The notes under the pieces: generated by a model
Databases searched by the model: none
Told to the model about the DNA's origin: nothing
Seen by the model: only the letters and a program-made list of their open reading frames with translations
IMG/VR virus record: IMGVR_UViG_2617270957_000009
Location: 1-9,619 of that record
Direction: 5' to 3' (one strand)
Length of the DNA stretch: 9,619 nucleotides
Source of the DNA: a virus
Lineage: Duplodnaviria > Heunggongvirae > Uroviricota > Caudoviricetes
Position numbers and translations under genes: made by a program
In this document: positions 1-9,619 of the stretch, piece after piece
Position numbering within the stretch: the stretch's first letter is position 1
Layout: each line of letters opens with the position of its first letter

Positions 1-687
1 CGGCAGGAAACACTGAATGAATGCACCCGTGCGGAGCAGTCGGCCAGCGTGGTGCTCTGGGAAATCGATCTGACAGAGGTCGGTGGAGAACGTTATTTTT
101 TCTGTAATGAGCAGAACGAAAAAGGTGAGCCGGTCACCTGGCAGGGGCGACAGTATCAGCCGTATCCCATTCAGGGGAGTGGTTTTGAACTGAATGGCAA
201 AGGCACCAGTACGCGCCCCACGCTGACGGTTTCTAACCTGTACGGTATGGTCACCGGGATGGCGGAAGATCTGCAGAGTCTGGTCGGCGGAACGGTGGTC
301 CGGCGTAAGGTTTACGCCCGTTTTCTGGATGCGGTGAACTTCGTCAACGGAAACAGTTACGCCGATCCGGAGCAGGAGGTGATCAGCCGCTGGCGCATTG
401 AGCAGTGCAGCGAACTGAGCGCGGTGAGTGCCTCCTTTGTACTGTCCACGCCGACGGAAACGGATGGCGCTGTTTTTCCGGGACGTATCATGCTGGCCAA
501 CACCTGCACCTGGACCTATCGCGGCGATGAGTGCGGTTATCACGGTCCGGCGGTCGCGGATGAATATGACCAGCCAACGTCCGATATCACGAAGGATAAA
601 TGCAGCAAATGCCTGAGCGGTTGTAAGTTCCGCAATAACGTCGGCAACTTTGGCGGCTTCCTTTCCATTAACAAACTTTCGCAGTAA
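1..687 (+). CDS. L: Tail tip protein L, 3' portion (5' end lies upstream of the window)
   Basis: The frame is open from nt 1 (RQETLNECTRAEQSASVVLWEIDLTEVGGERYFFC...) to TAA at 685-687. The translation matches my recollection of phage lambda gpL almost residue for residue, including the Cys-rich C-terminus (CSKCLSGCKF). The ORF track's Met at 49 is internal; the real start is upstream of the window. Confidence 0.93.
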   Translation, partial: RQETLNECTRAEQSASVVLWEIDLTEVGGERYFFCNEQNEKGEPVTWQGRQYQPYPIQGSGFELNGKGTSTRPTLTVSNLYGMVTGMAEDLQSLVGGTVVRRKVYARFLDAVNFVNGNSYADPEQEVISRWRIEQCSELSAVSASFVLSTPTETDGAVFPGRIMLANTCTWTYRGDECGYHGPAVADEYDQPTSDITKDKCSKCLSGCKFRNNVGNFGGFLSINKLSQ

Positions 688-692
688 ATCCC

Positions 693-1436
693 ATGACACA
701 GACAGAATCAGCGATTCTGGCGCACGCCCGGCGATGTGCGCCAGCGGAGTCGTGCGGCTTCGTGGTAAGCACGCCGGAGGGGGAAAGATATTTCCCCTGC
801 GTGAATATCTCCGGTGAGCCGGAGGCGTATTTCCGTATGTCGCCGGAAGACTGGCTGCAGGCAGAAATGCAGGGTGAGATTGTGGCGCTGGTCCACAGCC
901 ACCCCGGTGGTCTGCCCTGGCTGAGTGAGGCCGACCGGCGGCTGCAGGTGCAGAGTGATTTGCCGTGGTGGCTGGTCTGCCGGGGGACGATTCATAAGTT
1001 CCGCTGTGTGCCGCATCTCACCGGGCGGCGCTTTGAGCACGGTGTGACGGACTGTTACACACTGTTCCGGGATGCTTATCATCTGGCGGGGATTGAGATG
1101 CCGGACTTTCATCGTGAGGATGACTGGTGGCGTAACGGCCAGAATCTCTATCTGGATAATCTGGAGGCGACGGGGCTGTATCAGGTGCCGTTGTCAGCGG
1201 CACAGCCGGGCGATGTGCTGCTGTGCTGTTTTGGTTCATCGGTGCCGAATCACGCCGCAATTTACTGCGGCGACGGCGAGCTGCTGCACCATATTCCTGA
1301 ACAACTGAGCAAACGAGAGAGGTACACCGACAAATGGCAGCGACGCACACACTCCCTCTGGCGTCACCGGGCATGGCACGCATCTGCCTTTACGGGGATT
1401 TACAACGATTTGGCCGCCGCATCGATCTTCGTGTGA
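693..1436 (+). CDS. K: Tail tip assembly protein K (N-terminal JAMM/MPN metalloprotease-like domain plus C-terminal NlpC/P60 cysteine peptidase-like domain)
   Basis: 247-aa ORF starting 6 nt after the L stop. It carries a JAMM motif, H-x-H-x7-S-x2-D, in VHSHPGGLPWLSEAD (His codon at 894-896), and NlpC/P60-type Cys/His residues (TDCYTLF, PNHAAIY, LLHH). An alternative internal ATG at 837 would give 199 aa but would remove the N-terminal part of the MPN fold. No clear Shine-Dalgarno precedes 693, so the start is probably coupled to L. Confidence 0.88.
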   Translation: MTQTESAILAHARRCAPAESCGFVVSTPEGERYFPCVNISGEPEAYFRMSPEDWLQAEMQGEIVALVHSHPGGLPWLSEADRRLQVQSDLPWWLVCRGTIHKFRCVPHLTGRRFEHGVTDCYTLFRDAYHLAGIEMPDFHREDDWWRNGQNLYLDNLEATGLYQVPLSAAQPGDVLLCCFGSSVPNHAAIYCGDGELLHHIPEQLSKRERYTDKWQRRTHSLWRHRAWHASAFTGIYNDLAAASIFV

Positions 1437-2005
1437 AAACGGGGGCTGAAGCCATCCGGGCACTGGCCACACAGCTCCCGGCGTTTCGTCAGAAACTGAG
1501 CGACGGCTGGTATCAGGTACGGATTGCCGGGCGGGATGTCAGCACGTCCGGATTAACGGCGCAGTTACATGAGACTCTGCCTGATGGCGCTGTGATTCAT
1601 ATTGTTCCCAGAGTCGCCGGGGCCAAGTCAGGTGGCGTATTCCAGATTGTCCTGGGGGCTGCCGCCATTGCCGGATCATTCTTTACCGCCGGAGCCACCC
1701 TTGCAGCATGGGGGGCAGCCATTGGGACCGGTGGTATGACCGGCATCCTGTTTTCTCTCGGTGCCAGTATGGTGCTCGGTGGTGTGGCGCAGATGCTGGC
1801 ACCGAAAGCCAGGACGCCCACAGCGACCAGCACGGATAACGGTAAGCAGAACACGTATTTCTCTTCACTGGATAACATGGTTGCCCAGGGCAATGTTCTG
1901 CCTGTTCTGTACGGTGAAATGCGCGTGGGGTCACGCGTGGTTTCTCAGGAGATCAGCACGGCAGACGAAGGGGACGGTGGTCAGGTTGTGGTGATTGGTC
2001 GCTGA
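1334..2005 (+). CDS. I: Tail tip assembly protein I
   Basis: 223-aa ORF with an N-terminal ubiquitin-like region and a Gly/Ala-rich hydrophobic segment (GGVFQIVLGAAAIAGSFFTAGATLAAWGAAIGTGG). Its position between K and J, and its 103-nt out-of-frame overlap with the 3' end of K, match the lambda arrangement. Confidence 0.9.
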   Translation: MAATHTLPLASPGMARICLYGDLQRFGRRIDLRVKTGAEAIRALATQLPAFRQKLSDGWYQVRIAGRDVSTSGLTAQLHETLPDGAVIHIVPRVAGAKSGGVFQIVLGAAAIAGSFFTAGATLAAWGAAIGTGGMTGILFSLGASMVLGGVAQMLAPKARTPTATSTDNGKQNTYFSSLDNMVAQGNVLPVLYGEMRVGSRVVSQEISTADEGDGGQVVVIGR

Positions 2006-2023
2006 TGCAAAATGTTTTATGTG

Positions 2024-2044
2024 AAACCGCCTCCGGGCGGTTTT
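2024..2044 (+). other. Stem-loop in the I-J intergenic region (possible attenuator or RNA stability element)
   Basis: AAACCGCC-TCCG-GGCGGTTTT forms an 8-bp GC-rich stem with a 4-nt loop and a short T run. It sits inside the late operon between I and J, so it is unlikely to be a full terminator. The J ribosome-binding site (GGAG, GAGGA) follows at 2053-2065. Confidence 0.35.
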
Positions 2045-2065
2045 GTCGTTTATGGAGCGTGAGGA

Positions 2066-5000
2066 ATGGGTAAAGGCAGCAGTAAGGGGCATACCCCGCG
2101 CGAAGCAAAGGACAACCTGAAGTCCACGCAGTTGCTGAGTGTGATCGATGCCATCAGCGAAGGGCCGGTTGAAGGTCCGGTGGATGGATTAAAAAGCGTG
2201 CTGCTGAACAGTACACCGGTGCTGGACAGTGAGGGAAATACCAACATCTCCGGCGTCACGGTGGTGTTCCGGGCAGGTGAGCAGGAACAGACACCGCCGG
2301 AGGGATTTGAATCATCAGGTTCCGAGACGGTACTGGGTACGGAAGTGAAATACGACACGCCGATCACCCACACCATTACGTCTGCAAACATCGACCGTCT
2401 GCGCTTTACCTTCGGTGTGCAGGCACTGGTGGAAACCACTTCAAAGGGGGACCGTAATCCATCGGAAGTCCGCCTGCTGGTTCAGATACAGCGTAACGGT
2501 GGCTGGGTGACGGAAAAAGACATCACCATTAAGGGCAAAACCACCTCGCAGTATCTGGCCTCGGTGGTGGTGGATAACCTGCCTCCGCGCCCGTTCAACA
2601 TCCGGATGCGCAGGATGACGCCGGACAGCACCACAGACCAGCTGCAGAACAAAACGCTCTGGTCGTCATACACCGAAATCATCGATGTGAAACAGTGCTA
2701 CCCGAACACGGCACTGGTCGGCGTGCAGGTGGACTCGGAACAGTTCGGCAGCCAGCAGGTGAGCCGTAATTATCATCTTCGCGGGCGCATTCTGCAGGTG
2801 CCGTCGAACTATAACCCGCAGACGCGGCAATACAGCGGTATCTGGGACGGGACGTTTAAACCGGCATACAGCAACAACATGGCCTGGTGTCTGTGGGATA
2901 TGCTGACCCACCCGCGCTACGGCATGGGTAAACGTCTTGGTGCGGCAGATGTGGATAAATGGGCGCTGTATGTCATCGGCCAGAATTGCGACCAGTCGGT
3001 GCCGGACGGTTTTGGCGGCACGGAGCCGCGCATCACCTGTAATGCGTACCTGACCACACAGCGCAAGGCGTGGGATGTGCTCAGTGATTTTTGCTCGGCG
3101 ATGCGCTGTATGCCGGTATGGAACGGGCAGACGCTGACATTCGTGCAGGACCGACCGTCGGATAAGGTGTGGACCTATAACCGCAGTAATGTGGTGATGC
3201 CGGATGATGGCGCGCCGTTCCGCTACAGCTTCAGCGCCCTGAAGGACCGCCATAATGCCGTTGAGGTGAACTGGATTGACCCGGATAACGGCTGGGAGAC
3301 GGCGACAGAGCTTGTGGAGGACACGCAGGCCATTGCCCGTTACGGTCGTAACGTCACGAAGATGGATGCCTTTGGCTGTACCAGTCGGGGGCAGGCACAC
3401 CGCGCCGGGCTGTGGCTGATTAAAACGGAGCTGCTGGAAACGCAGACCGTGGACTTCAGCGTGGGCGCAGAAGGGCTTCGCCATGTACCGGGCGATGTCA
3501 TTGAAATCTGCGATGATGACTATGCGGGTATCAGCATCGGCGGGCGCGTGCTGGCGGTGAACAGCCAGGCGCGGACACTGACGCTCGACCGTGAAATCAT
3601 GCTGCCATCCTCCGGCACCACGCTGATAAGCCTGGTTGACGGAAATGGCAATCCGGTCAGCGTGGAGGTCCAGTCCGTCACCGACGGCGTGAAGGTGAAA
3701 GTGAGCCGTGTTCCTGACGGCGTTGCCGGATACAGCGTGTGGGGACTGAAGCTGCCGACGCTGCGCCAGCGCCTGTTCCGCTGCGTGAGTATCCGTGAGA
3801 ACGACGACGGCACGTATGCCATCACCGCCGTGCAGCATGTACCGGCAAAAGAGGCCATCGTGGATAACGGGGCGCACTTTGACGGCGACCAGAGCGGCAC
3901 GGTGAATGGTGTCACGCCGCCAGCAGTGCAGCACCTGACTGCCGAAGTCACCGCAGACAGCGGGGAGTATCAGGTACTGGCCCGCTGGGACACGCCGAAG
4001 GTGGTGAAGGGCGTAAGTTTCATGCTTCGCCTGACCGTGGCAGCGGATGACGGCAGTGAGCGGCTGGTCAGCACAGCCCGGACGGCGGAAACCACATACC
4101 GCTTCACACAACTGGCGCTGGGGAACTACAGGCTGACAGTCCGGGCAGTAAATGCGTGGGGGCAGCAGGGCGATCCGGCATCGGTATCGTTCCGGATTGC
4201 CGCACCGGCAGCGCCGTCGCAGATTGAGCTGACACCGGGGTATTTTCAGATAACCGCCACGCCGCATCTTGCGGTTTATGATCCGACGGTACAGTTTGAG
4301 TTCTGGTTCTCGGAAAAGCGGATTGCGGATATCAGGCAGGTTGAAACCACAGCACGCTATCTTGGCACGGCGCTGTACTGGATAGCCGCCAGTATCAATA
4401 TCAAACCGGGCCATGATTATTATTTTTACATCCGCAGTGTGAACACCGTTGGCAAATCGGCATTTGTGGAGGCTGTTGGCCAGCCGAGTGATGATGCATC
4501 CGGCTATCTGAATTTTTTCAAAGGAGAGATAGGGAAAACCCATCTGGCTCAGGAGTTGTGGACGCAGATTGATAACGGTCAGCTTGCGCCTGACCTGGCT
4601 GAAATCAGGACGTCCATTACGGGTGTCAGCAATGAAATCACGCAGACCGTCAATAAGAAACTGGAAGACCAGAGTGCAGCGATCCAGCAGATACAGAAGG
4701 TTCAGGTTGATACAAATAATAATCTGAACAGCATGTGGGCTGTGAAGCTGCAGCAGATGCAGGATGGACGCCTTTATATTGCGGGTATCGGTGCCGGTAT
4801 TGAGAACACCCCTGACGGCATGCAGAGTCAGGTGCTGCTGGCGGCGGACAGGATTGCGATGGTTAATCCTGCGAATGGCAACACAAAACCGATGTTTGTT
4901 GGTCAGGGCGATCAGATATTCATGAACGACGTGTTCCTGAAACGCCTGACGGCCCCCACCATTACCAGCGGTGGAAATCCACCGGCATTTTCCCTGACAC

Positions 5001-5548
5001 CGGACGGGCGGCTGACGGCGAAAAATGCCGATATCAGCGGTAACGTGAATGCGAACTCCGGGACGCTCAACAACGTCACGATTAACGAGAACTGTCGGAT
5101 TCTGGGAAAACTGTCAGCTAACCAGATTGAAGGTGATATTGTCAAAACGGTGGGAAAAGCCTTTCCGAGAAATGGCAGTTATGCCAGCGGTACAATAACG
5201 GTCACTGTGTACGATGACCAGGCTTTTGACCGTCAGATAGTAGTCCCCCCCGTTCTGTTTCGCGGTGGTAAGCATGAAAACTTCAACAGCAACAACCAAC
5301 AGTCATACTGGTATTCAACCTGTAAGCTGCAGGTGCTGAAGAACGGACAGGAAATCTTTCAGCAACCCGCGACGGATGTCAGCAGGGTATTTTCATCAGT
5401 CATTGATATGCCTGCCGGACACGGCCATGTCACCCTGACTTTCAATGTTTCTTCATATGGTGCAAATAACTGGACGCCAACGACCAGTATCAGCGACCTT
5501 CTTGTTGTCGTGATGAAGAAATCAACAGCCGGTATCAGTATCAGTTGA
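2066..5548 (+). CDS. J: Central tail fibre / host specificity protein J
   Basis: 1160-aa ORF with a strong RBS (GAGGA 5 nt before ATG). The N-terminal roughly 800 aa match my recollection of lambda gpJ ([34 protein letters not shown]...), including a fibronectin-III-like segment. The C-terminal roughly 350 aa are a mosaic of conserved islands ([38 protein letters not shown]) and divergent stretches. Stop is TGA at 5546-5548. Confidence 0.95.
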
Positions 5549-5565
5549 ATTTTAAAACCCAAATT

Positions 5566-5593
5566 CGGGCACCAGAAATGGTGCCTTTTTTAT
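5566..5593 (+). terminator. Rho-independent terminator downstream of J
   Basis: Stem GGCACC (5568-5573) / GGTGCC (5580-5585) with loop AGAAAT, followed by TTTTTTATTT, 20 nt after the J stop. Confidence 0.7.
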
Positions 5594-5606
5594 TTGTGGA
5601 GTGAAT

Positions 5607-7961
5607 ATGGCAGTACAGATTTCAGGTGTGCTGAAAGACGGTGCAGGAAAACCGATACAGAACTGCACCATTCAGCTCAAAGCAAAACGTAACAGCACCA
5701 CGGTTGTGGTAAACACGGTGGCCTCAGAAAATCCGGATGAAGCCGGACGTTACAGCATGGATGTCGAGTATGGCCAGTACAGCGTTATCCTGCTGGTTGA
5801 AGGTTTTCCGCCTTCACATGCCGGGACCATTACCGTCTATGAAGGTTCCAGTCCGGGGACGCTGAATGATTTTCTCGGTGCCATGACGGAAGATGATGTC
5901 ATGCCGGAGGCATTGCGTCGTTTTGAGGCAATGGTGGAAGAAGCGGCACGCAACGCCGAAGCCGCCTCTCAGAGCGCAGCGGCGGCAAAGAAATCCGAAA
6001 CTGCAGCGGCATCATCGAAGAACGCGGCGAAAACCTCAGAAACGAATGCAGCTAATAGTGCACAGGCGGCAGCGACCTCACAGACTGCATCGGCAAACTC
6101 CGCGACAGCAGCCAAAAAATCAGAAACCAACGCGAAAAATAGCGAGACAGCCGCAAAGACGAGTGAAATCAACGCAAAGTCCAGCCAGACGGCAGCGAAG
6201 ACCAGCGAAACGAATGCCAAAGCCAGTGAAACTGCGGCGAAAAGCAGTCAAGCTGCAGCAGCCGAAAGCGAGAGTGTTGCAGCCGGTTCTGCGACTTCAG
6301 CAGCTGGATCAGCAACTGCTGCGGCTAACAGCCAGAAAGCTGCGAAGACGAGTGAAACTAACGCAAAGTCCAGCCAGACGGCAGCGAAGACCAGCGAAAC
6401 GAATGCCAAAGCCAGCGAAACTGCGGCGAAAAACAGTCAGGATGCAGCAGCCGAAAGCGAGAGTGCTGCAGCTGGTTCTGCAACAGCGGCAGCTAATAGC
6501 CAAAAAGCTGCAAAAGCCAGTGAAACTAACGCAAAGACGAGTGAAACAAAAGCAGCAGCTAGCGAGACAGAAGCAACGTCAGCCGCAACAAGAGCAGAGA
6601 ATGCAGCCCGGATTGCAGAAGATGCCGCTGATCCTGCTTCTGTCCCTCCGCTTCCTGATATCTGGCTACCCATGAATGATTCTCTGGAAGCGATAACAGG
6701 GTATGCCCCGGGCTATAAAACAATAACCATCGGCAGTGATGAAATAACAATGCCTGTTAATGGCATATGCCAATTTAGCCGGGCTTCATCTGCAACGTAT
6801 ATTGATAAGTCAGGGCATATTACCGTGGCAGGGAATAACGTTCCTCGTTTTGAAAAATATGGTTTGCTGATAGAGAATCAGCGAACAAACATGTTCGTAA
6901 ATAGTTTTAATCCTGATGCCTGGAATAAAAGCGGTGGTATATCTGTAACATCATCAACAGATGAATTTGAGTTTAAATATGGACGTTTCACAGTAGGAAG
7001 CGACATAGCAGGAACGACAACAGGGAGAAATATATGCACAGTTGCTGGTAATAAAGGCATAGATGTGACTGGCGATGATCAGTACAGTAAAGGTCCGTAT
7101 GTTACCGCGTCGTTCAGGGTAAGAAGTGATCTCAATGTTCGCGCACGTATCCGTTTTGAACGGTATAACTCGGAAGGATACACTTTCCTTTGTGACGCCT
7201 ATTTGTCATTACAGACCCATGAACTACAAATTACGGGTGGTAATGCCCAGCTATTAACAGCAAACTTTGAAATCGATCCAGGTAGTGGATGGATATATTT
7301 TCAGGCAACCCTGAAATGTTTGCCAGAATGGGGAATGGTTGGTACGCAGTTGCAAATTGCAGCCGACAGAGCTGTGGGGTCTTTTGCAACAGGTGACTGG
7401 ATAGAAGTAACCACCCCGCAATTTGAGTATGGTGCTTGTGCAACTTCCTTTATCATAACGACAACAGAGCCAGCTACTCGTGCATCAGATTTATGTAAAT
7501 TTCCGCTGATGAAAAATATGTATACCATGCCTTTTACGTTCATGGTGGAAGTCCATAAAAACTGGTTTATTTCTCATAATGCTGCACCGCGTGTCATTGA
7601 TTCAGAAAATCACCAGTCCGGGGGCCCATTTATTATGGGGTTTGGTTCTTCTGGAACTATCAGTCAGGACGGTTATTCGTATTGCGATATAGGCGGGGCT
7701 AACCGACGTGTATATGAGTCATGCGGAGTAAGAGATCTCGTTATGGGATTCAGGGTTAAGGCTGACGGCATGACATGCTCATTTGCAAATAAGCATATAA
7801 GCACAGAAACAAAAACAGTATGGAAATATATTCGTGAAGCTGCTGTGATTCGTATCGGGGGACAAACGACGACAGGATTACGACACCTTAATGGTCATAT
7901 AAAAAACCTCCGTTTCTGGAACAGAGCATTGTCAGATACGCAGCTTAAGGAATACGTATAA
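5607..7961 (+). CDS. stf: Side tail fibre protein (lambda Stf-like N-terminus, Ala/Ser-rich repeat shaft, LamG/concanavalin A-like C-terminal domain)
   Basis: The ORF track starts at GTG 5601, but ATG 5607 with GGAG at 5598-5601 (5-nt spacer) is the better start, giving MAVQISGVLKDGAGKPIQNCTIQLKAKRNSTTVVVNTV..., which matches the conserved N-terminus of lambda Stf. The middle is repetitive (AAKTSETNAK...). The C-terminus ends in ...IRIGGQTTTGLRHLNGHIKNLRFWNRALSDTQLKEYV, typical of the final strands of LamG-type jelly-roll domains. Stop is TAA at 7959-7961. Length is 784 aa from ATG 5607. Confidence 0.88.
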   Translation: MAVQISGVLKDGAGKPIQNCTIQLKAKRNSTTVVVNTVASENPDEAGRYSMDVEYGQYSVILLVEGFPPSHAGTITVYEGSSPGTLNDFLGAMTEDDVMPEALRRFEAMVEEAARNAEAASQSAAAAKKSETAAASSKNAAKTSETNAANSAQAAATSQTASANSATAAKKSETNAKNSETAAKTSEINAKSSQTAAKTSETNAKASETAAKSSQAAAAESESVAAGSATSAAGSATAAANSQKAAKTSETNAKSSQTAAKTSETNAKASETAAKNSQDAAAESESAAAGSATAAANSQKAAKASETNAKTSETKAAASETEATSAATRAENAARIAEDAADPASVPPLPDIWLPMNDSLEAITGYAPGYKTITIGSDEITMPVNGICQFSRASSATYIDKSGHITVAGNNVPRFEKYGLLIENQRTNMFVNSFNPDAWNKSGGISVTSSTDEFEFKYGRFTVGSDIAGTTTGRNICTVAGNKGIDVTGDDQYSKGPYVTASFRVRSDLNVRARIRFERYNSEGYTFLCDAYLSLQTHELQITGGNAQLLTANFEIDPGSGWIYFQATLKCLPEWGMVGTQLQIAADRAVGSFATGDWIEVTTPQFEYGACATSFIITTTEPATRASDLCKFPLMKNMYTMPFTFMVEVHKNWFISHNAAPRVIDSENHQSGGPFIMGFGSSGTISQDGYSYCDIGGANRRVYESCGVRDLVMGFRVKADGMTCSFANKHISTETKTVWKYIREAAVIRIGGQTTTGLRHLNGHIKNLRFWNRALSDTQLKEYV
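6156..6512 (+). repeat. In-frame near-perfect tandem duplication (189-nt unit = 63 aa) inside the stf shaft region
   Basis: Copy 1 at 6156-6344 and copy 2 at 6345-6512 are almost identical at nucleotide level (AAGACGAGTGAAA.CAACGCAAAGTCCAGCCAGACGGCAGCGAAGACCAGCGAAACGAATGCCAAAGCCAG...). Copy 2 lacks a 21-nt segment (GSATSAAGSATAAANSQ versus GSATAAANSQ). Degenerate shorter units encoding AAK(T/S)SETNA extend from about 5985 to about 6570. Confidence 0.85.
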
Positions 7962-8230
7962 TGCGGGATATAACATTACGATTCGATAACAGAGAACAGT
8001 TTAACGCAATTGTATATGACAGTGGCCTGTTCAGTCTTGAAGAAGAAAACGGGGTTCTTGTTGATGTTATTGGCTGCATTATCGATTACGAGGAGCCAGA
8101 AAACGAAAGATGTACAGGCATTGATCGCGGTGGTTTTTTCGTAAACATGAGGATTGTTGATAGCAGTAAAAACATATCTTCTTTAATGCCTTTCATTACG
8201 ACAGATCAGCATGTAAGGACATGGGCTTAA
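7961..8230 (+). CDS. Hypothetical small acidic protein (89 aa), translationally coupled to stf; function unknown
   Basis: Its ATG at 7961-7963 overlaps the stf stop codon (TAATG), and AAGGAA lies 8 nt upstream. The ORF is A+T-rich and acidic (MRDITLRFDNREQFNAIVYDSGLFSLEEENGVLVDVIGCIIDYEEPENER...). I recognise no motif. It does not resemble lambda-type Tfa. Confidence 0.6.
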   Translation: MRDITLRFDNREQFNAIVYDSGLFSLEEENGVLVDVIGCIIDYEEPENERCTGIDRGGFFVNMRIVDSSKNISSLMPFITTDQHVRTWA

Positions 8231-8242
8231 TGGAGTAAGACA

Positions 8243-9283
8243 ATGGTTACAAAAACAGTAATTCCTGAAGACATCAAAACGCTAAAATCCGACGTTAGAA
8301 AATTAAAAAACGATCAAGGAAGCTACGCAACAAAATCATATGTAGACAGCAAAGATGAAACCGTTGGTGACTGGTCTGCTTCATGGTATCAGCAGGTATT
8401 GCCAACTAGCGGAGCTATATTTGGGAGAAAACTCCGCTCAACTCACCGGACGGCAGGTGTTGAGGATGCGTATTGCGAACTATACCTCAAAAAATGGATA
8501 GACAGTCCAGGTAACGCAATGGCGCGCCTTAACCTGAACGATAACGGGACAAACATTTGCTGGGACTTTACCAACCTTTATGGCGGTACGATGATTTTTC
8601 CCGGTGGCAGCGGATACCTCAAAATGGGTAACTGCCTTATGTCATACAGCAAGCGTGGAAGTAACGCGCTTATTAAATTTGATTACACCGACACATTACA
8701 GATCAAATATGCTAATCATGGGTCAACCATGACATTAAACACACAGGGAACCGCTTATGCTGGTGTTACCGCTAAATTGTGGGGCAACTCCAGCCGTCCT
8801 GTTGTTTATGAAGTCGGTGTTGATGGTGGCGCTTATATGTTCTACGGTCAGAAACAAACCGATAATACCTATGCGTTCGCTGTTAATGGTGCATGTCATG
8901 CCACCGCCTTTAACCAGGCTTCCGACCGAGATCTGAAAGATAATCTTCAGGTGATTGATAATGCAACAGATCGCATCCGCAAGATGAACGGCTATACCTA
9001 TACCCTTAAGGAAAACGGTATGCCCTATGCAGGTGTCATTGCACAGGAAGCTCTGGAAGCAATCCCGGAAGTTGTAGGCTCCGCAATGAAATATCAGGAC
9101 GGTGGAAACGGCTCGGAAGGGGAAGAAGGTGAGCGTTACTACACTGTAGATTATTCTGGTATTACTGGCTTGCTTGTTCAGGTAGCCAGAGAGTCAGACG
9201 ACAGAATAACAGCACTGGAAGAAGAAAACGCAGAATTAAGACAAAGATTATCTGCAATTGAGGCGGCGCTTGCGTCTAAATAA
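8243..9283 (+). CDS. Tail fibre / tailspike-like protein with C-terminal peptidase S74 intramolecular chaperone (auto-processing) domain
   Basis: GGAG lies 7 nt upstream of the ATG. The C-terminal roughly 120 aa fit the S74 chaperone-domain pattern: SDRDLKDN...(K)MNGYTYTLKENG.PYAGVIAQEALEAIPEVV...ERYYTVDYSGITGLLVQVARE, followed by a coiled-coil-like tail (ITALEEENAELRQRLSAIEAALASK). The N-terminal 226 aa are Gly/Thr/Tyr-rich and beta-rich in character. Confidence 0.82.
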   Translation: MVTKTVIPEDIKTLKSDVRKLKNDQGSYATKSYVDSKDETVGDWSASWYQQVLPTSGAIFGRKLRSTHRTAGVEDAYCELYLKKWIDSPGNAMARLNLNDNGTNICWDFTNLYGGTMIFPGGSGYLKMGNCLMSYSKRGSNALIKFDYTDTLQIKYANHGSTMTLNTQGTAYAGVTAKLWGNSSRPVVYEVGVDGGAYMFYGQKQTDNTYAFAVNGACHATAFNQASDRDLKDNLQVIDNATDRIRKMNGYTYTLKENGMPYAGVIAQEALEAIPEVVGSAMKYQDGGNGSEGEEGERYYTVDYSGITGLLVQVARESDDRITALEEENAELRQRLSAIEAALASK

Positions 9284-9289
9284 TATTAA

Positions 9290-9312
9290 GGGGCCGAGCG
9301 CCCCGTTTTATT
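9290..9312 (+). terminator. Rho-independent terminator after the S74 fibre gene
   Basis: Stem GGGGC (9290-9294) / GCCCC (9300-9304) with a 5-nt loop, followed by GTTTTATT, immediately after the TAA stop at 9281-9283. Confidence 0.65.
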
Positions 9313-9325
9313 GGGTAGGATGAAA

Positions 9326-9619
9326 ATGGATATAACACCTTTCCTTCATGCACTTTGTGCTGTGGCTGCACAGCTACTGATTGGTCTTTTTACCGGGAAC
9401 TGGGCTTACGGAGCGATAGTCGGTTGTACGTTCTTCATTGCGCGTGAACACACCCAGGCAGAATATCGCTGGATTGAAATGTTCGGGCATGGCAAGCGAA
9501 TGAATATGCCGTGGTGGGGCGGTTTTGATCCTCGTGCTTGGGATGTGGCAAGCCTGATGGATTTTGCTGTGCCGGTGGTGGCGTGTCTGCTGGTCTGGCT
9601 GTTGGTTAATCGTGGGTGA
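9326..9619 (+). CDS. Small predicted inner-membrane protein (about 97 aa, three hydrophobic segments), function unknown
   Basis: The ORF runs to TGA at 9617-9619. AGGA at 9317-9320 is well spaced for ATG 9326; in-frame alternatives are ATG 9320 and TTG 9311. Hydrophobic helices: FLHALCAVAAQLLIGLFTG, AYGAIVGCTFFIA and LMDFAVPVVACLLVWLLV, with a Trp/Gly-rich loop (PWWGGFDPRAWD). I do not recognise the family. Confidence 0.6.
   Translation: MDITPFLHALCAVAAQLLIGLFTGNWAYGAIVGCTFFIAREHTQAEYRWIEMFGHGKRMNMPWWGGFDPRAWDVASLMDFAVPVVACLLVWLLVNRG

What the first reader, a model, noticed from the sequence alone, without database searches (positions are those of the whole stretch)
6640..9283. Compositional break inside stf marks a probable horizontally exchanged receptor-binding cassette
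Up to about 6640 the sequence is GC-rich with lambda-like codon usage. From about 6650 (Stf residue about 348, just after the repeat shaft: ...DPASVPPLPDIWLPMND...) through the end of the S74 gene it is visibly A+T-richer by eye; I did not compute exact values. The membrane protein gene after 9326 returns to higher GC. This pattern fits modular swapping of the distal fibre domain together with its two downstream genes.
Basis: seen in the sequence. Interest (0 to 1): 0.6.

Follow-up and report, generated by a model that had tools for sequence, protein, structure and literature searches.

The report
Mosaic side-tail-fibre receptor cassette in lambdoid phage
The drop in G+C inside the side tail fibre gene is real and marks a swappable host-recognition cassette that this lambda-like phage shares with unrelated virulent coliphages, which is a well-documented way for phages to change host range, so the finding is sound but ordinary in kind.

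Summary
The compositional break is real. G+C falls from 0.51 (4241-6713) to 0.44 (6714-9619), beyond every block shuffle. Third-position GC in stf falls from 0.51 to 0.34 at about nt 6462, and CTG among Leu codons falls from 0.57-0.75 to 0.17. Three corrections apply. The largest break in the window is at about 4240, inside J. The G+C of 6000-6640 is held up by Ala codons. The return to higher GC after 9326 is weak.

The shared recombination junction lies at about 6483-6550, not 6650. The protein module starts at 6648 (PLPDIW). The region is two independently assorting modules, not one cassette:
- Module A is the last shaft repeats, a 437-aa distal module and orf89.
- Module B is the S74 fibre, which is itself mosaic. 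Nt 8304-8755 differ at 2 positions from the virulent Nonagvirus ESCO3.

The same gene layout occurs in Nonagvirus, T1-like and T5-like phages. An rV5-like phage has the distal module plus the small gene only. In those phages the cassette's GC roughly matches the rest of the fetched locus. Function is inferred: a glycan-binding distal domain, a cognate small assembly or adaptor protein, and a second fibre docked through a conserved N-terminal peptide. I rate it a new member of a known kind, of modest interest.

The parts
5601..5999 (+). stf N-terminal virion-anchor domain (Stf residues 1-133). It is the conserved left flank of the variable region.
   Evidence: PF08400 matches residues 3-133 with E = 1.1e-67. 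Nt 5590-5956 are 86% identical to lambda stf. Some part of 5601-7100 is found in 4816 of 5426 E. coli genomes, and in the sampled rows homology most often ends at 5956-5959.
6000..6647 (+). Ala-rich repeat shaft of Stf (residues 134-349), containing a 189-nt tandem duplication at 6141-6554.
   Evidence: Tandem Repeats Finder reports period 189, 1.8-2.1 copies and 83-92% matches. GC2 is 0.68 and GC3 0.42. AT skew is 0.56-0.61. Homology to relatives ends at 6054-6073, 6133, 6179-6185 and 6230.
6483..6550 (+). Left recombination junction zone of the exchanged module, shared by many prophages.
   Evidence: Tritos and PhiR49_1 are near-identical up to about 6482. A 21-nt indel follows at 6489/6490, and full divergence starts at about 6549. 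Megablast end points at 6483-6494 recur in many E. coli genomes. The GC3 change point is at about 6462.
6648..7961 (+). Stf distal module (residues 350-786). It starts at the conserved PLPDIWLPMNDSLEAITG motif, contains a CBM-like beta-sandwich (about residues 432-612, nt 6894-7436) and ends in a conserved RIGGQT...RHLxGH...W...L.D.Q tail. It is the presumed glycan-binding receptor domain.
   Evidence: It aligns full length at 33-54% aa identity with lateral tail fibres of T5-like, T1-like, Dhillonvirus, Queuovirinae, Vequintavirinae and other lambdoid phages. NF048003 GTA_spike_fiber scores 47.9 bits against a cutoff of 36, at residues 423-628. phmmer matches the RcGTA head spike fibre 6tb9 at E = 5.7e-4. 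The AF2 model is confident only for query residues about 85-265, and Foldseek matches these to phage Pa193/E217 baseplate and tail-fibre complex chains and to CBM4/6/16/22. A search of 50%-identity cluster representatives finds 2096 at E <= 0.001; the full-length matches mostly start at query residue 1-5 and run to the C-terminal end of proteins of 388-1247 aa.
7961..8230 (+). orf89, a small protein of family phrog_1361. Its start overlaps the stf stop codon by one base. It is the cognate partner of the distal module, with a role as assembly factor or adaptor inferred.
   Evidence: phrog_1361 matches at E = 9.6e-31. A homologue lies directly downstream of the distal module in all 13 phages examined, including three with no second fibre. 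Pairwise identity co-varies with the distal module (r = 0.86). There is no significant Pfam, NCBIfam or PDB match. The AF2 model has pLDDT 66 with a beta-alpha-beta-beta-alpha order and no significant fold match.
8243..8302 (+). Conserved N-terminal peptide of the second fibre (MVTKTVIPEDIKTLKSDVRK). It is the probable docking peptide and a recombination linker between modules A and B.
   Evidence: The pattern M-x-T-x-T-x-IP-x-DI-x-x-LK is shared by second fibres of lambdoid, Nonagvirus, T1-like (tunus) and T5-like (AKFV33 orf135) phages, while the rest of the proteins is 21-28% identical in several of them. Breakpoints flank it: homology resumes at 8224 in Tritos and ESCO3 and ends at 8286 in PhiR55_1.
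8304..8755 (+). Body of the second fibre (residues about 21-171), the presumed second receptor-binding domain. This tract was recently exchanged with a virulent phage.
   Evidence: It has 2 mismatches in 452 nt against the virulent Nonagvirus ESCO3, and the flanks are 65-87% identical. PhiR11_1 is only 50-62% identical over about 8329-8628.
8921..9283 (+). S74 intramolecular chaperone domain of the second fibre (residues 227-346). The motif S227-DRDLK sits where such domains cleave themselves off.
   Evidence: PF13884 matches residues 227-278 at E = 4.3e-13. phmmer matches the phage long tail fibre distal subunit 6f45 at E = 1.4e-3. PhiR47_1 and GN02100 are 65-72% identical over about 8590-9190 and about 98% again from 9190.
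9290..9304 (+). GC-rich hairpin followed by a T-rich tract, directly after the S74 stop codon. It is terminator-like and lies in the right junction.
   Evidence: Pattern scan: GGGGCCGAGCGCCCC followed by GTTTTATTGG.
9326..9619 (+). Complete 97-aa membrane protein gene (phrog_1443). It is the conserved right flank of the variable region.
   Evidence: phrog_1443 matches at E = 2e-58. Two hydrophobic segments are present and the gene ends in a stop codon at 9619. It is 90-95% identical at the nucleotide level from 9317-9325 in PhiR55_1, PhiR49_1, PhiR49_2 and Lambda_2E9, whatever lies upstream.

Best explanation
The window is the tail-tip end of a lambda-like (pro)phage of E. coli. Its side tail fibre locus is a mosaic. 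A lambdoid N-terminal anchor and Ala-rich shaft are joined to a lateral-tail-fibre cassette that circulates among many coliphage families. The low G+C and the AT-biased codon usage belong to that cassette wherever it is found.

Shown here:
1. The variable region runs from about 6483 to about 9316. It lies between two conserved flanks, the stf 5' part and the membrane-protein gene.
2. It consists of two independently assorting modules. Module A is the last shaft repeats, the 437-aa distal module and orf89. Module B is the S74 fibre.
3. Breakpoints cluster at conserved sequences: the end of the anchor domain (5956), the shaft repeats (6054-6230 and 6483-6550), the coding sequence of the second fibre's conserved N-terminal peptide (8224-8303), the borders of the S74 domain (about 8756 and about 9190), and 9317. 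This fits homologous recombination between diverged alleles, leaving high-identity tracts flanked by intermediate identity.
4. One tract (8304-8755) is 99.6% identical to a virulent Nonagvirus, so exchange between the temperate and virulent pools has been recent.

Inferred:
5. The distal module carries a CBM-like beta-sandwich and binds a surface glycan (O-antigen or LPS) as primary receptor.
6. orf89 is the cognate assembly factor or adaptor of that module. It takes the genomic place of lambda's Tfa, which is absent.
7. The S74 protein is a second short fibre. It trimerises with the help of its C-terminal chaperone domain, cleaves it off at about Ser227, and docks through its conserved N-terminal peptide onto the first fibre. 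This would give a branched fibre with two receptor specificities that can be exchanged separately.
For: Composition and codon usage.

Discordant best hits and junction map.

The same three-gene layout (fibre, small ORF, second fibre) occurs in Nonagvirus ESCO3 and JenP1, T1-like tunus and T5-like AKFV33. The rV5-like phage FFH2 has the distal module plus the small ORF only.

The distal module aligns full length from the PLPDVW motif in all these families. In the 50%-identity cluster search the full-length matches mostly start at query residue 1-5.

Cassette composition across phages: in the virulent phages the distal module has GC 0.38-0.48 and GC3 0.27-0.40, and the rest of each fetched locus has GC 0.38-0.45. 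Other lambdoid carriers have distal-module GC 0.40-0.45. Lambda's own stf C-part and tfa have GC 0.52 and 0.49.

Linkage of the distal module with orf89, and independent assortment of the second fibre.

ESCO3 tract with 2 mismatches in 452 nt.

Domain evidence.

[quoted passage not shown] Branched two-protein lateral fibres are described in DT57C (PMC4728585, PMC10713586). Relaxed homologous recombination at diverged flanks makes lambdoid mosaics, including at stf-tfa (PMC3945230). Stf N-terminal parts tolerate foreign C-terminal parts (PMC11338833).
Against: No experiment or complex model supports steps 5-7. The AF2 model of the distal module is confident for only about 180 of 439 residues, and the orf89 model is of low confidence with no fold match.

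The docking parts of the DT57C system are not homologous here. The LtfB N-terminus is unrelated, and LtfA matches only the Ala-rich shaft. The branched model therefore rests on analogy plus the conserved N-terminal peptide.

Lambda itself shows a milder GC decline across stf and tfa, and a very AT-rich neighbouring gene (ea47, GC 0.31). Low GC alone is therefore not proof of a recent import.

The direction of transfer between temperate and virulent phages cannot be told from these data.

The whole stretch 5590-9604 is colinear at 92-97% identity in PhiR47_1, PhiR11_1, GN02100 and 1517k. In the most recent history of this lineage the locus has been inherited as a block.
Confidence: 0.75

Rival explanations
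1. One three-gene cassette (distal Stf domain, orf89 and S74 gene) was imported in a single event at about 6650 and about 9300.
For: The low-GC stretch is continuous from about 6500 to 9283. The whole of 5590-9604 is colinear at 92-97% identity in PhiR47_1, PhiR11_1, GN02100 and 1517k. The three-gene layout is conserved in Nonagvirus, T1-like and T5-like phages.
Against: PhiR55_1 shares the distal module and orf89 at 100% aa identity but has an unrelated 227-aa second fibre. Tritos and ESCO3 share the S74 fibre at 89-95% but the distal module at only 50%. Lambda_2E9 and PhiR49_2 have the module plus the small ORF and no second fibre. The two alleles are found in different numbers of genomes, 141 against 470-705. 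The S74 gene has at least two internal junctions. The shared left junction is at 6483-6494, not 6650.
Confidence: 0.12
2. The compositional shift is not a trace of exchange. It reflects amino-acid composition (an Ala-rich shaft next to a globular domain) and the general GC gradient of lambdoid genomes from the late operon towards the AT-rich b region.
For: GC2 is 0.68 in the shaft, which inflates total GC up to about 6640. Lambda shows a gradient of its own: J 0.57, stf N-part 0.58, stf C-part 0.52, tfa 0.49, ea47 0.31. GC already drops at 4240.
Against: The shift is as strong at synonymous sites: GC3 falls from 0.51 to 0.34 and CTG/Leu from 0.57 to 0.17. It coincides with nucleotide-homology breakpoints. 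The cassette is more AT-rich than lambda's own distal fibre genes and is close in GC to the surrounding DNA of the virulent phages that carry it. Discordant best hits show exchange directly.
Confidence: 0.08
3. The locus is an invertible or alternative-expression host-range switch of the Mu G / P1 C / e14 type, in which a site-specific invertase flips alternative fibre C-termini.
For: Such invertases are associated with stf genes in several phages (PMC3945230). Tritos has a PinR recombinase gene a few hundred bases downstream of its cassette.
Against: All genes in the window's cassette are on one strand. No invertase gene lies in the window. The only inverted repeats are two weak pairs, of 25 nt at 80% and 22 nt at 82% complementarity, and neither brackets alternative C-terminal exons.
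Confidence: 0.02
4. The S74 protein is not part of the side tail fibre. It would be an independent short fibre or spike that attaches elsewhere on the tail tip, and orf89 would be its adaptor rather than a partner of the Stf distal module.
For: No physical evidence places it on Stf. Its docking parts are not homologous to LtfB or phiEco32 gp15. orf89 lies between the two fibre genes.
Against: orf89 homologues persist where no second fibre exists (Lambda_2E9, PhiR49_2, FFH2) and co-vary with the distal module, not with the second fibre. The second fibre's conserved N-terminal peptide is found next to this distal module in four phage groups whose tail tips are otherwise different.
Confidence: 0.2

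Closest known systems
Side tail fibre Stf with assembly protein Tfa of Ur-lambda
   Same: Same genomic position downstream of J. Same N-terminal anchor domain (PF08400, E = 1e-67; nt 5590-5956 are 86% identical to lambda stf). Same presumed role as a primary-receptor fibre.
   Different: No homology to lambda after about nt 5956. There is no Tfa homologue. The distal part is a CBM-like / GTA-spike-fibre-type module, followed by an unrelated 89-aa protein and an extra S74 fibre gene. There is no lom gene between J and stf.
Lateral tail fibre loci of small siphoviruses and T5-like coliphages (Drexlerviridae, Dhillonvirus, Queuovirinae, Markadamsvirinae), as surveyed in the BASEL collection (PMC8594841)
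   Same: The same distal module (33-54% aa identity, full length), the same small downstream ORF and, in several phages, the same type of second fibre with the same N-terminal peptide. Examples are JenP1 gp23-25, ESCO3 78-80, the tunus locus and AKFV33 orf137-135. [quoted passage not shown]
   Different: The N-terminal anchor and shaft here are lambdoid. The host genome is temperate and more GC-rich, which is why the cassette stands out compositionally.
Branched L-shaped tail fibres LtfA-LtfB of T5-like phages DT57C and DT571/2, and phiEco32 gp14-gp15 (PMC4728585, PMC10713586)
   Same: Two fibre genes in tandem. The second protein has no virion anchor of its own and ends in an S74 chaperone domain. 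The two receptor specificities can be exchanged separately.
   Different: The docking parts are not homologous. The LtfB N-terminus is unrelated to the MVTKTVIP...LK peptide, and LtfA lacks the PLPDVW module. LtfA itself ends in an S74 domain. The annotated DT571/2 ltf locus has no small ORF between ltfA and ltfB.
Head spike fibre Rcc01080 of the Rhodobacter capsulatus gene transfer agent (PDB 6tb9; NCBIfam NF048003)
   Same: Weak but above-cutoff sequence similarity of Stf residues 423-628.
   Different: That protein sits on the capsid of a gene transfer agent. Identity is low, and the flanking parts of the Stf distal module are not covered.
Classical tail-fibre mosaicism among unrelated phages (lambda Stf/Tfa, T4 gp37/gp38, P2 H, Mu S, P1 S)
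   Same: Receptor-binding C-terminal parts and their helpers move between unrelated temperate and virulent phages. The examples are recalled from memory; the ancient stf exchange among temperate and virulent phages is stated in PMC3945230.
   Different: A different module family is involved here. The exchange is recent (99.6% identity over 452 nt), whereas the 2014 survey of 84 genomes found no mosaic above 90% identity between temperate and virulent E. coli phages.

Membership tests
Lambdoid side tail fibre (Stf) | N-terminal 'prophage tail fibre N-terminal' domain (PF08400), in a gene downstream of J | tested here: met
   PF08400 matches residues 3-133 at E = 1.1e-67, 226.6 bits against a cutoff of 26.6. 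J is at 2066-5548 with all its Pfam domains.
Lambda-type Stf-Tfa pair | A Tfa-type tail fibre assembly protein encoded directly downstream of stf | tested here: not met
   The downstream 89-aa protein has no significant Pfam or NCBIfam match. It matches phrog_1361, a family of unknown function. The window shows no nucleotide homology to lambda after 5956.
Pan-coliphage lateral tail fibre cassette (distal module plus phrog_1361 small protein) | A C-terminal module of about 435 aa that starts at PLPD(V/I)W and ends in RIGGQT..RHL.GH, with a small ORF of 88-110 aa immediately downstream | tested here: met
   Alignment of 13 phages from 5 groups. tblastn covers the query full length in 195 phage records. 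The small ORF is adjacent in every locus fetched. This 'family' is defined here from the data, not from the literature.
S74 intramolecular-chaperone fibres and spikes (K1F endosialidase, T5 pb1 type) | C-terminal Peptidase_S74 domain (PF13884) | tested here: met
   PF13884 matches residues 227-278 at E = 4.3e-13, 49.8 bits against a cutoff of 22.
S74 intramolecular-chaperone fibres and spikes (K1F endosialidase, T5 pb1 type) | Autocleavage at the conserved Ser at the start of the domain, releasing the mature trimer | not testable with these tools
   The motif S227-DRDLK is present at the start of the domain. The expectation that cleavage occurs there comes from general knowledge of the family and from PMC4728585.
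DT57C / phiEco32-type branched lateral fibre | Second fibre N-terminus homologous to LtfB / gp15, and first fibre with a gp14-like docking region | tested here: not met
   blastp of Stf and the S74 protein against DT571/2 LtfA and LtfB finds only Ala-rich shaft matches (E = 4e-5). The S74 protein has no match at all, so its N-terminus has none. phiEco32-like phages match AKFV33 orf135 only from residue 49 onwards.
DT57C / phiEco32-type branched lateral fibre | Physical attachment of the second fibre to the first | not testable with these tools
   Only monomer structure prediction was available. The indirect support is the conserved N-terminal peptide across four phage groups.
GTA head-spike-fibre domain (NF048003) | Score above NCBI's curated cutoff | tested here: met
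   47.9 bits against a cutoff of 36, at residues 423-628. phmmer matches 6tb9 at E = 5.7e-4. The confident part of the AF2 model is a CBM-like beta-sandwich.
Recent recombination mosaic in the sense of De Paepe et al. 2014 | A tract above 90% identity between otherwise dissimilar genomes, flanked by regions of intermediate identity | tested here: met
   Against ESCO3, nt 8304-8755 are 99.6% identical. The left flank 8224-8303 is about 83% identical and the right flank 8756-9219 is 65-87% identical. Elsewhere in the fetched 9-kb ESCO3 locus only two short stretches at 67-70% identity match.
Invertible tail-fibre segment (Mu G, P1 C, e14 P) | Invertase gene plus inverted crossover sites bracketing alternative fibre C-termini on opposite strands | tested here: not met
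   All genes are on the + strand. Only two weak inverted pairs were found. No recombinase gene lies in the window.

The most novel reading that the evidence does not exclude
The small protein orf89 (phrog_1361), the PLPDVW distal module and the conserved N-terminal peptide of the second fibre might together form a portable 'socket and plug' system. It would be shared by lambdoid, T1-like, T5-like and Queuovirinae phages, and in part by rV5-like phages. It would let any S74-type fibre be hung on the side or lateral tail fibre without a Tfa-type chaperone. In this reading the temperate and virulent coliphage pools trade the plugged-in receptor domains on a recent timescale: nt 8304-8755 are 99.6% identical between this lambdoid and a Nonagvirus, a genus reported to carry a 7-deazaguanine DNA modification. 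A 2014 survey of 84 genomes had found no recent mosaic between temperate and virulent E. coli phages.
Probability: 0.3. Interest if true: 0.55.

Novelty: new member of a known kind. Interest (0 to 1): 0.3.

Why it matters
Host range in lambda-like phages, and in lambda-derived delivery particles, is set largely by J and Stf. This locus gives naturally validated fusion points for building chimeric fibres:
- the end of the anchor domain (about residue 119);
- the shaft repeats (about residues 294-316);
- the PLPDVW motif (residue 350);
- the first 20 residues of the second fibre.

It also points to a cassette that may carry two receptor specificities and needs no Tfa-type chaperone. The near-identical tract shared with a virulent Nonagvirus shows that prophages and candidate therapeutic virulent phages draw on one pool of receptor-binding modules. 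That is relevant to predicting host-range shifts and to the safety arguments made for phage therapy. None of this changes the general picture of tail-fibre mosaicism.

Tried and rejected
1. Structure of the distal module. AF2 with 25 homologues gave mean pLDDT 54. Only about 180 residues were usable and the C-terminal 160 residues were unmodelled. The fold matches therefore speak only for the central beta-sandwich.

2. orf89. The single-sequence homologue search found only 4 near-identical fragments. A profile search found 351 proteins, and none of the 120 listed carries an informative name or a Pfam domain. A profile search against PDB sequences and Pfam scans of 10 family members found nothing significant. 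The AF2 model had pLDDT 66, and the best Foldseek match had E = 0.57. The function remains an inference from gene linkage.

4. Homology to the DT57C/DT571-2 branched-fibre docking parts was tested and not found. The analogy is kept, but membership is rejected.

5. An invertible-segment reading was rejected for lack of inverted sites and of an invertase.

6. A literature search for the source of the PhiR (ECOR) phages, or for a description of this Stf type in lambdoids, found nothing relevant.

7. The Gifsy-1 Stf paper was checked, but that Stf is of the Ur-lambda type, about 51% identical to it, and not this module.

8. The exact source of the window is not in the collections searched. The best whole-window match is 94.7% identity over 95% of the window. 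The best match for 5590-9604 is E. coli 1517k at 97.5%.

Full report
**What the window is**

The window carries the distal tail genes of a lambda-like phage, all on the + strand:
- L, 49-687
- K, 693-1436
- I, 1334-2005
- J, 2066-5548, with all the Pfam domains of lambda J
- a 786-aa side tail fibre gene, stf, 5601-7961
- an 89-aa ORF, 7961-8230
- a 346-aa protein with a C-terminal Peptidase_S74 domain, 8243-9283
- a complete 97-aa membrane protein gene, 9326-9619

 Nt 1-4562 are 96% identical to phage lambda. The exact sequence is not in the collections searched. The best whole-window match is an E. coli prophage at 94.7% identity over 95% of the window. Nt 5590-9604 match the dusA-integrated prophage of E. 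coli 1517k at 97.5%.

**Checking the observation**

The break is real and exceeds chance. Likelihood segmentation of G+C gives three segments: 1-4240 at 0.589, 4241-6713 at 0.514 and 6714-9619 at 0.441. The split at 6713 has LLR 18.0, and none of 200 block shuffles of the whole window exceeded 11.4.

The shift is as clear at synonymous sites. GC3 is 0.60-0.72 in L, K, I and the J N-part. It is 0.36 in the stf distal part, 0.37 in orf89 and 0.42 in the S74 gene. CTG makes up 0.75 of Leu codons in the early genes and 0.16-0.20 in the cassette. Rare codons double.

- The largest break in the window is at about 4240, inside J (LLR 62). The sequence is therefore not uniformly GC-rich up to 6640.
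- Total G+C stays at 0.54 through 6000-6641 only because the shaft is Ala-rich (GC2 0.68, GC3 0.42). On third positions the change point in stf is at about nt 6462 (0.51 to 0.34).
- The return to higher GC in the membrane gene is weak: GC 0.515 and GC3 0.505 over 294 nt, not resolved by segmentation. Codon usage does move part of the way back (CTG/Leu 0.50).

**Discordant best hits and junctions**

| Relative | Where it matches the window |
|---|---|
| Lambda | homology ends at 4562 in J; resumes at 86% for 5590-5956; then stops |
| Lambda_2E9 | 95% identical for 1-6133; then only 9317-9619 |
| PhiR49_2 | in stf, up to 6230 |
| Tritos, PhiR49_1 | near-identical up to about 6482; 21-nt indel at 6489/6490; fully diverged from about 6549 |
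| PhiR55_1 | 97% identical for 5590-8286; then an unrelated gene; matches again from 9317 |
| Tritos | resumes at 8224 and is 95% identical to the window's end |
| ESCO3 (virulent Nonagvirus) | only 8224-9219, with 2 mismatches in 8304-8755 |
| PhiR47_1, E. coli GN02100 | mostly 92-100% up to about 8590; 65-82% (mostly 65-73%) over about 8590-9190; about 98% again afterwards |

A spread sample of megablast hits of 5601-7100 in 5,426 complete E. coli genomes shows discrete, recurrent end points at 5956-5959, 6054-6073, 6179-6185, 6230 and 6483-6494. Some part of the query is found in 4,816 genomes, but only 127 carry a match covering at least 80% of 5601-7100.

**Anatomy of the exchanged region**

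Stf has three parts:
- the lambdoid anchor domain (PF08400, residues 3-133);
- an Ala-rich shaft with a 189-nt tandem duplication at 6141-6554;
- a distal module from residue 350 (nt 6648).

The distal module begins with the motif PLPDIWLPMNDSLEAITG and ends in RIGGQT...RHLNGH...W...L.D.Q. It aligns over its full length, at 33-54% identity, with the C-terminal parts of lateral tail fibres of T5-like, T1-like, Dhillonvirus, Queuovirinae and rV5-like phages, and of other lambdoids including phage 21.

A search of 1.84 billion cluster representatives found 2,096 relatives at E <= 0.001. The full-length matches mostly start at query residue 1-5 and run to the C-terminal end of proteins of 388-1,247 aa. 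This is the behaviour of a portable module with a fixed N-terminal boundary.

The central part of the module:
- exceeds NCBI's cutoff for the GTA head-spike-fibre domain;
- weakly matches the solved RcGTA head spike fibre;
- is the only confidently modelled part of the AF2 prediction, where it forms a beta-sandwich that resembles carbohydrate-binding modules and chains of phage baseplate and tail-fibre complexes.

**orf89**

orf89 belongs to phrog_1361, a family of unknown function. A homologue of 88-110 aa lies immediately downstream of the distal module in all 13 phages examined. These include Lambda_2E9, PhiR49_2 and rV5-like FFH2, which have no second fibre. Its pairwise identities track those of the distal module (r = 0.86). 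It has no significant Pfam, NCBIfam or PDB relative, and its low-confidence model has no significant fold match.

**The second fibre**

The second fibres are very diverse (227-557 aa), yet they share an N-terminal peptide, M-x-T-x-T-x-IP-x-DI-x-x-LK. This holds across lambdoid, Nonagvirus, T1-like and T5-like phages. The window's version has:
- a body at residues about 21-171;
- a neck;
- an S74 intramolecular chaperone domain from Ser227 (PF13884, E = 4e-13).

**One cassette or several**

The distal module and orf89 travel together, but the second fibre assorts independently.
- PhiR55_1 has a 100% identical distal module and orf89, and a second-fibre body that is 22% identical.
- Tritos has a 50% identical distal module and a 95% identical second fibre.
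- In complete E. coli genomes the distal+orf89 allele occurs in 141 genomes, and the S74 allele in 470 at 80% coverage or more.
- Among the records listed in either spread table, only strain 1517k appears with both.

The coding sequence of the conserved N-terminal peptide (8243-8302) lies exactly between the breakpoints at 8224 and 8286-8303. It therefore acts as the linker at which the two modules are recombined.

**Why the composition differs**

The cassette is AT-rich wherever it is found. In the virulent phages the distal module has GC 0.38-0.48 and GC3 0.27-0.40, and the rest of each fetched locus has GC 0.38-0.45. In other lambdoids the module has GC 0.40-0.45, below their tail genes. 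Lambda's own stf C-part and tfa are at 0.52 and 0.49.

The break therefore reflects a module family whose composition is closer to that of the AT-richer virulent coliphage genomes than to the lambdoid late operon. Low GC alone does not date the import, because lambda also shows a milder gradient towards its AT-rich b region.

**Mechanism**

What is shown: recombination breakpoints cluster at conserved sequences, and high-identity tracts are flanked by intermediate identity. This is the signature that De Paepe et al. attribute to relaxed homologous recombination by phage Rad52-like recombinases, which they demonstrated experimentally at lambda stf-tfa (PMC3945230).

What is inferred:
- The distal module binds a surface glycan. 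BASEL authors propose O-antigen binding for these lateral fibre loci and note the same pattern of variation, together with the one-protein or two-or-more-protein architectures (PMC8594841).
- orf89 is the module's cognate assembly factor or adaptor.
- The S74 protein docks on the first fibre through its N-terminal peptide, giving a branched fibre.

The precedent for the last point is LtfA-LtfB of DT57C (PMC4728585, PMC10713586). I tested for homology to that system and found none in the docking parts. It is therefore an analogy and not membership.

**Rivals**

- A single en-bloc cassette is contradicted by the independent assortment described above.
- A purely compositional explanation is contradicted by the synonymous-site shift, by its coincidence with homology breakpoints, and by the direct evidence of exchange.
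- An invertible switch is not supported. All genes are on one strand, there is no invertase, and only two weak inverted repeats exist.

**Novelty and interest**

All four proteins fall in existing PHROG families. Near-identical loci exist in deposited phages and in more than 100 E. coli genomes. Tail-fibre mosaicism is a classical finding.

The one point of some interest is the 99.6% identical 452-nt tract shared with a virulent Nonagvirus. A 2014 survey of 84 genomes found no mosaic above 90% identity between temperate and virulent E. coli phages.

I rate this a new member of a known kind, with modest interest.

Noticed in passing
window 4240-5548: The strongest compositional break of the window lies inside J at about 4240 (GC 0.589 to 0.514). 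Nucleotide homology to lambda and to 6 of the 9 relatives compared first ends at 4562 (J residue about 832). The C-terminal receptor-binding part of J is therefore a second, separately exchanged module.
   Followed up: partly
window 5549-5600: There is no lom gene between J and stf. PhiR47_1, PhiR55_1, GN02100 and 1517k carry a 600-nt lom gene at this point, and the alignments break at window 5590-5594. Lambda_2E9, PhiR11_1 and Tritos lack lom, like the window.
   Followed up: partly
window 5567-5586 and 9290-9304: Terminator-like hairpins, each followed by a T-rich tract, sit in the two intergenic gaps that bound the fibre genes: after J and after the S74 gene. Eleven terminator-like sites were found in 5400-9619 against 3.6 expected from shuffles. 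Most of them lie inside genes and are probably not functional.
   Followed up: no
window 5893-6675: The Ala-rich repeat shaft produces spurious long ORFs in other frames (260 aa on the + strand and several on the - strand) and an extreme AT skew of 0.56-0.61. These are by-products of the repeats, not genes.
   Followed up: partly
window 9326-9619: The 97-aa membrane protein (phrog_1443, at least two hydrophobic segments) is conserved at 90-95% nucleotide identity downstream of every lambdoid variant of the cassette, with or without a second fibre. It is absent from the annotated genes downstream of the cassette in the Nonagvirus, T1-like and T5-like loci fetched. Its function is unknown. In 1517k and in PhiR47_1 and PhiR55_1 a DinI-like gene and the integrase gene follow it.
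   Followed up: partly
phage collection records MG0656xx ('Campylobacter phage C12, C14, A116...') and OR849447/OR848352 ('Listeria phage LM 4-14-1'): These records give hits to the Stf distal module of the same kind as rV5-like or T5-like coliphages, at similar identities (for the Campylobacter-labelled records, the same 65.5% nucleotide identity over the same query stretch as rV5-like coliphages). They look like mislabelled or contaminant contigs rather than evidence that the module occurs in Campylobacter or Listeria phages.
   Followed up: no
E. coli plasmid records, e.g. NZ_CP101200.1 (46 kb) and NZ_OZ369305.1 (106 kb): The S74 fibre allele also occurs at 40 places on plasmid records in complete E. 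coli genomes. These may be phage-plasmids. The distal+orf89 allele was found only on chromosomes.
   Followed up: no
L004 (Tritos) 9737-10327: Tritos has a PinR-type site-specific recombinase gene, on the opposite strand, just downstream of its copy of the cassette and membrane gene. Nothing in the window suggests an invertible segment, but the window ends before the equivalent position.
   Followed up: no
window 7754-7778 and 8891-8915: A 25-nt inverted repeat (80% complementary) links the stf 3' part and the start of the S74 domain. It is probably a chance match.
   Followed up: no
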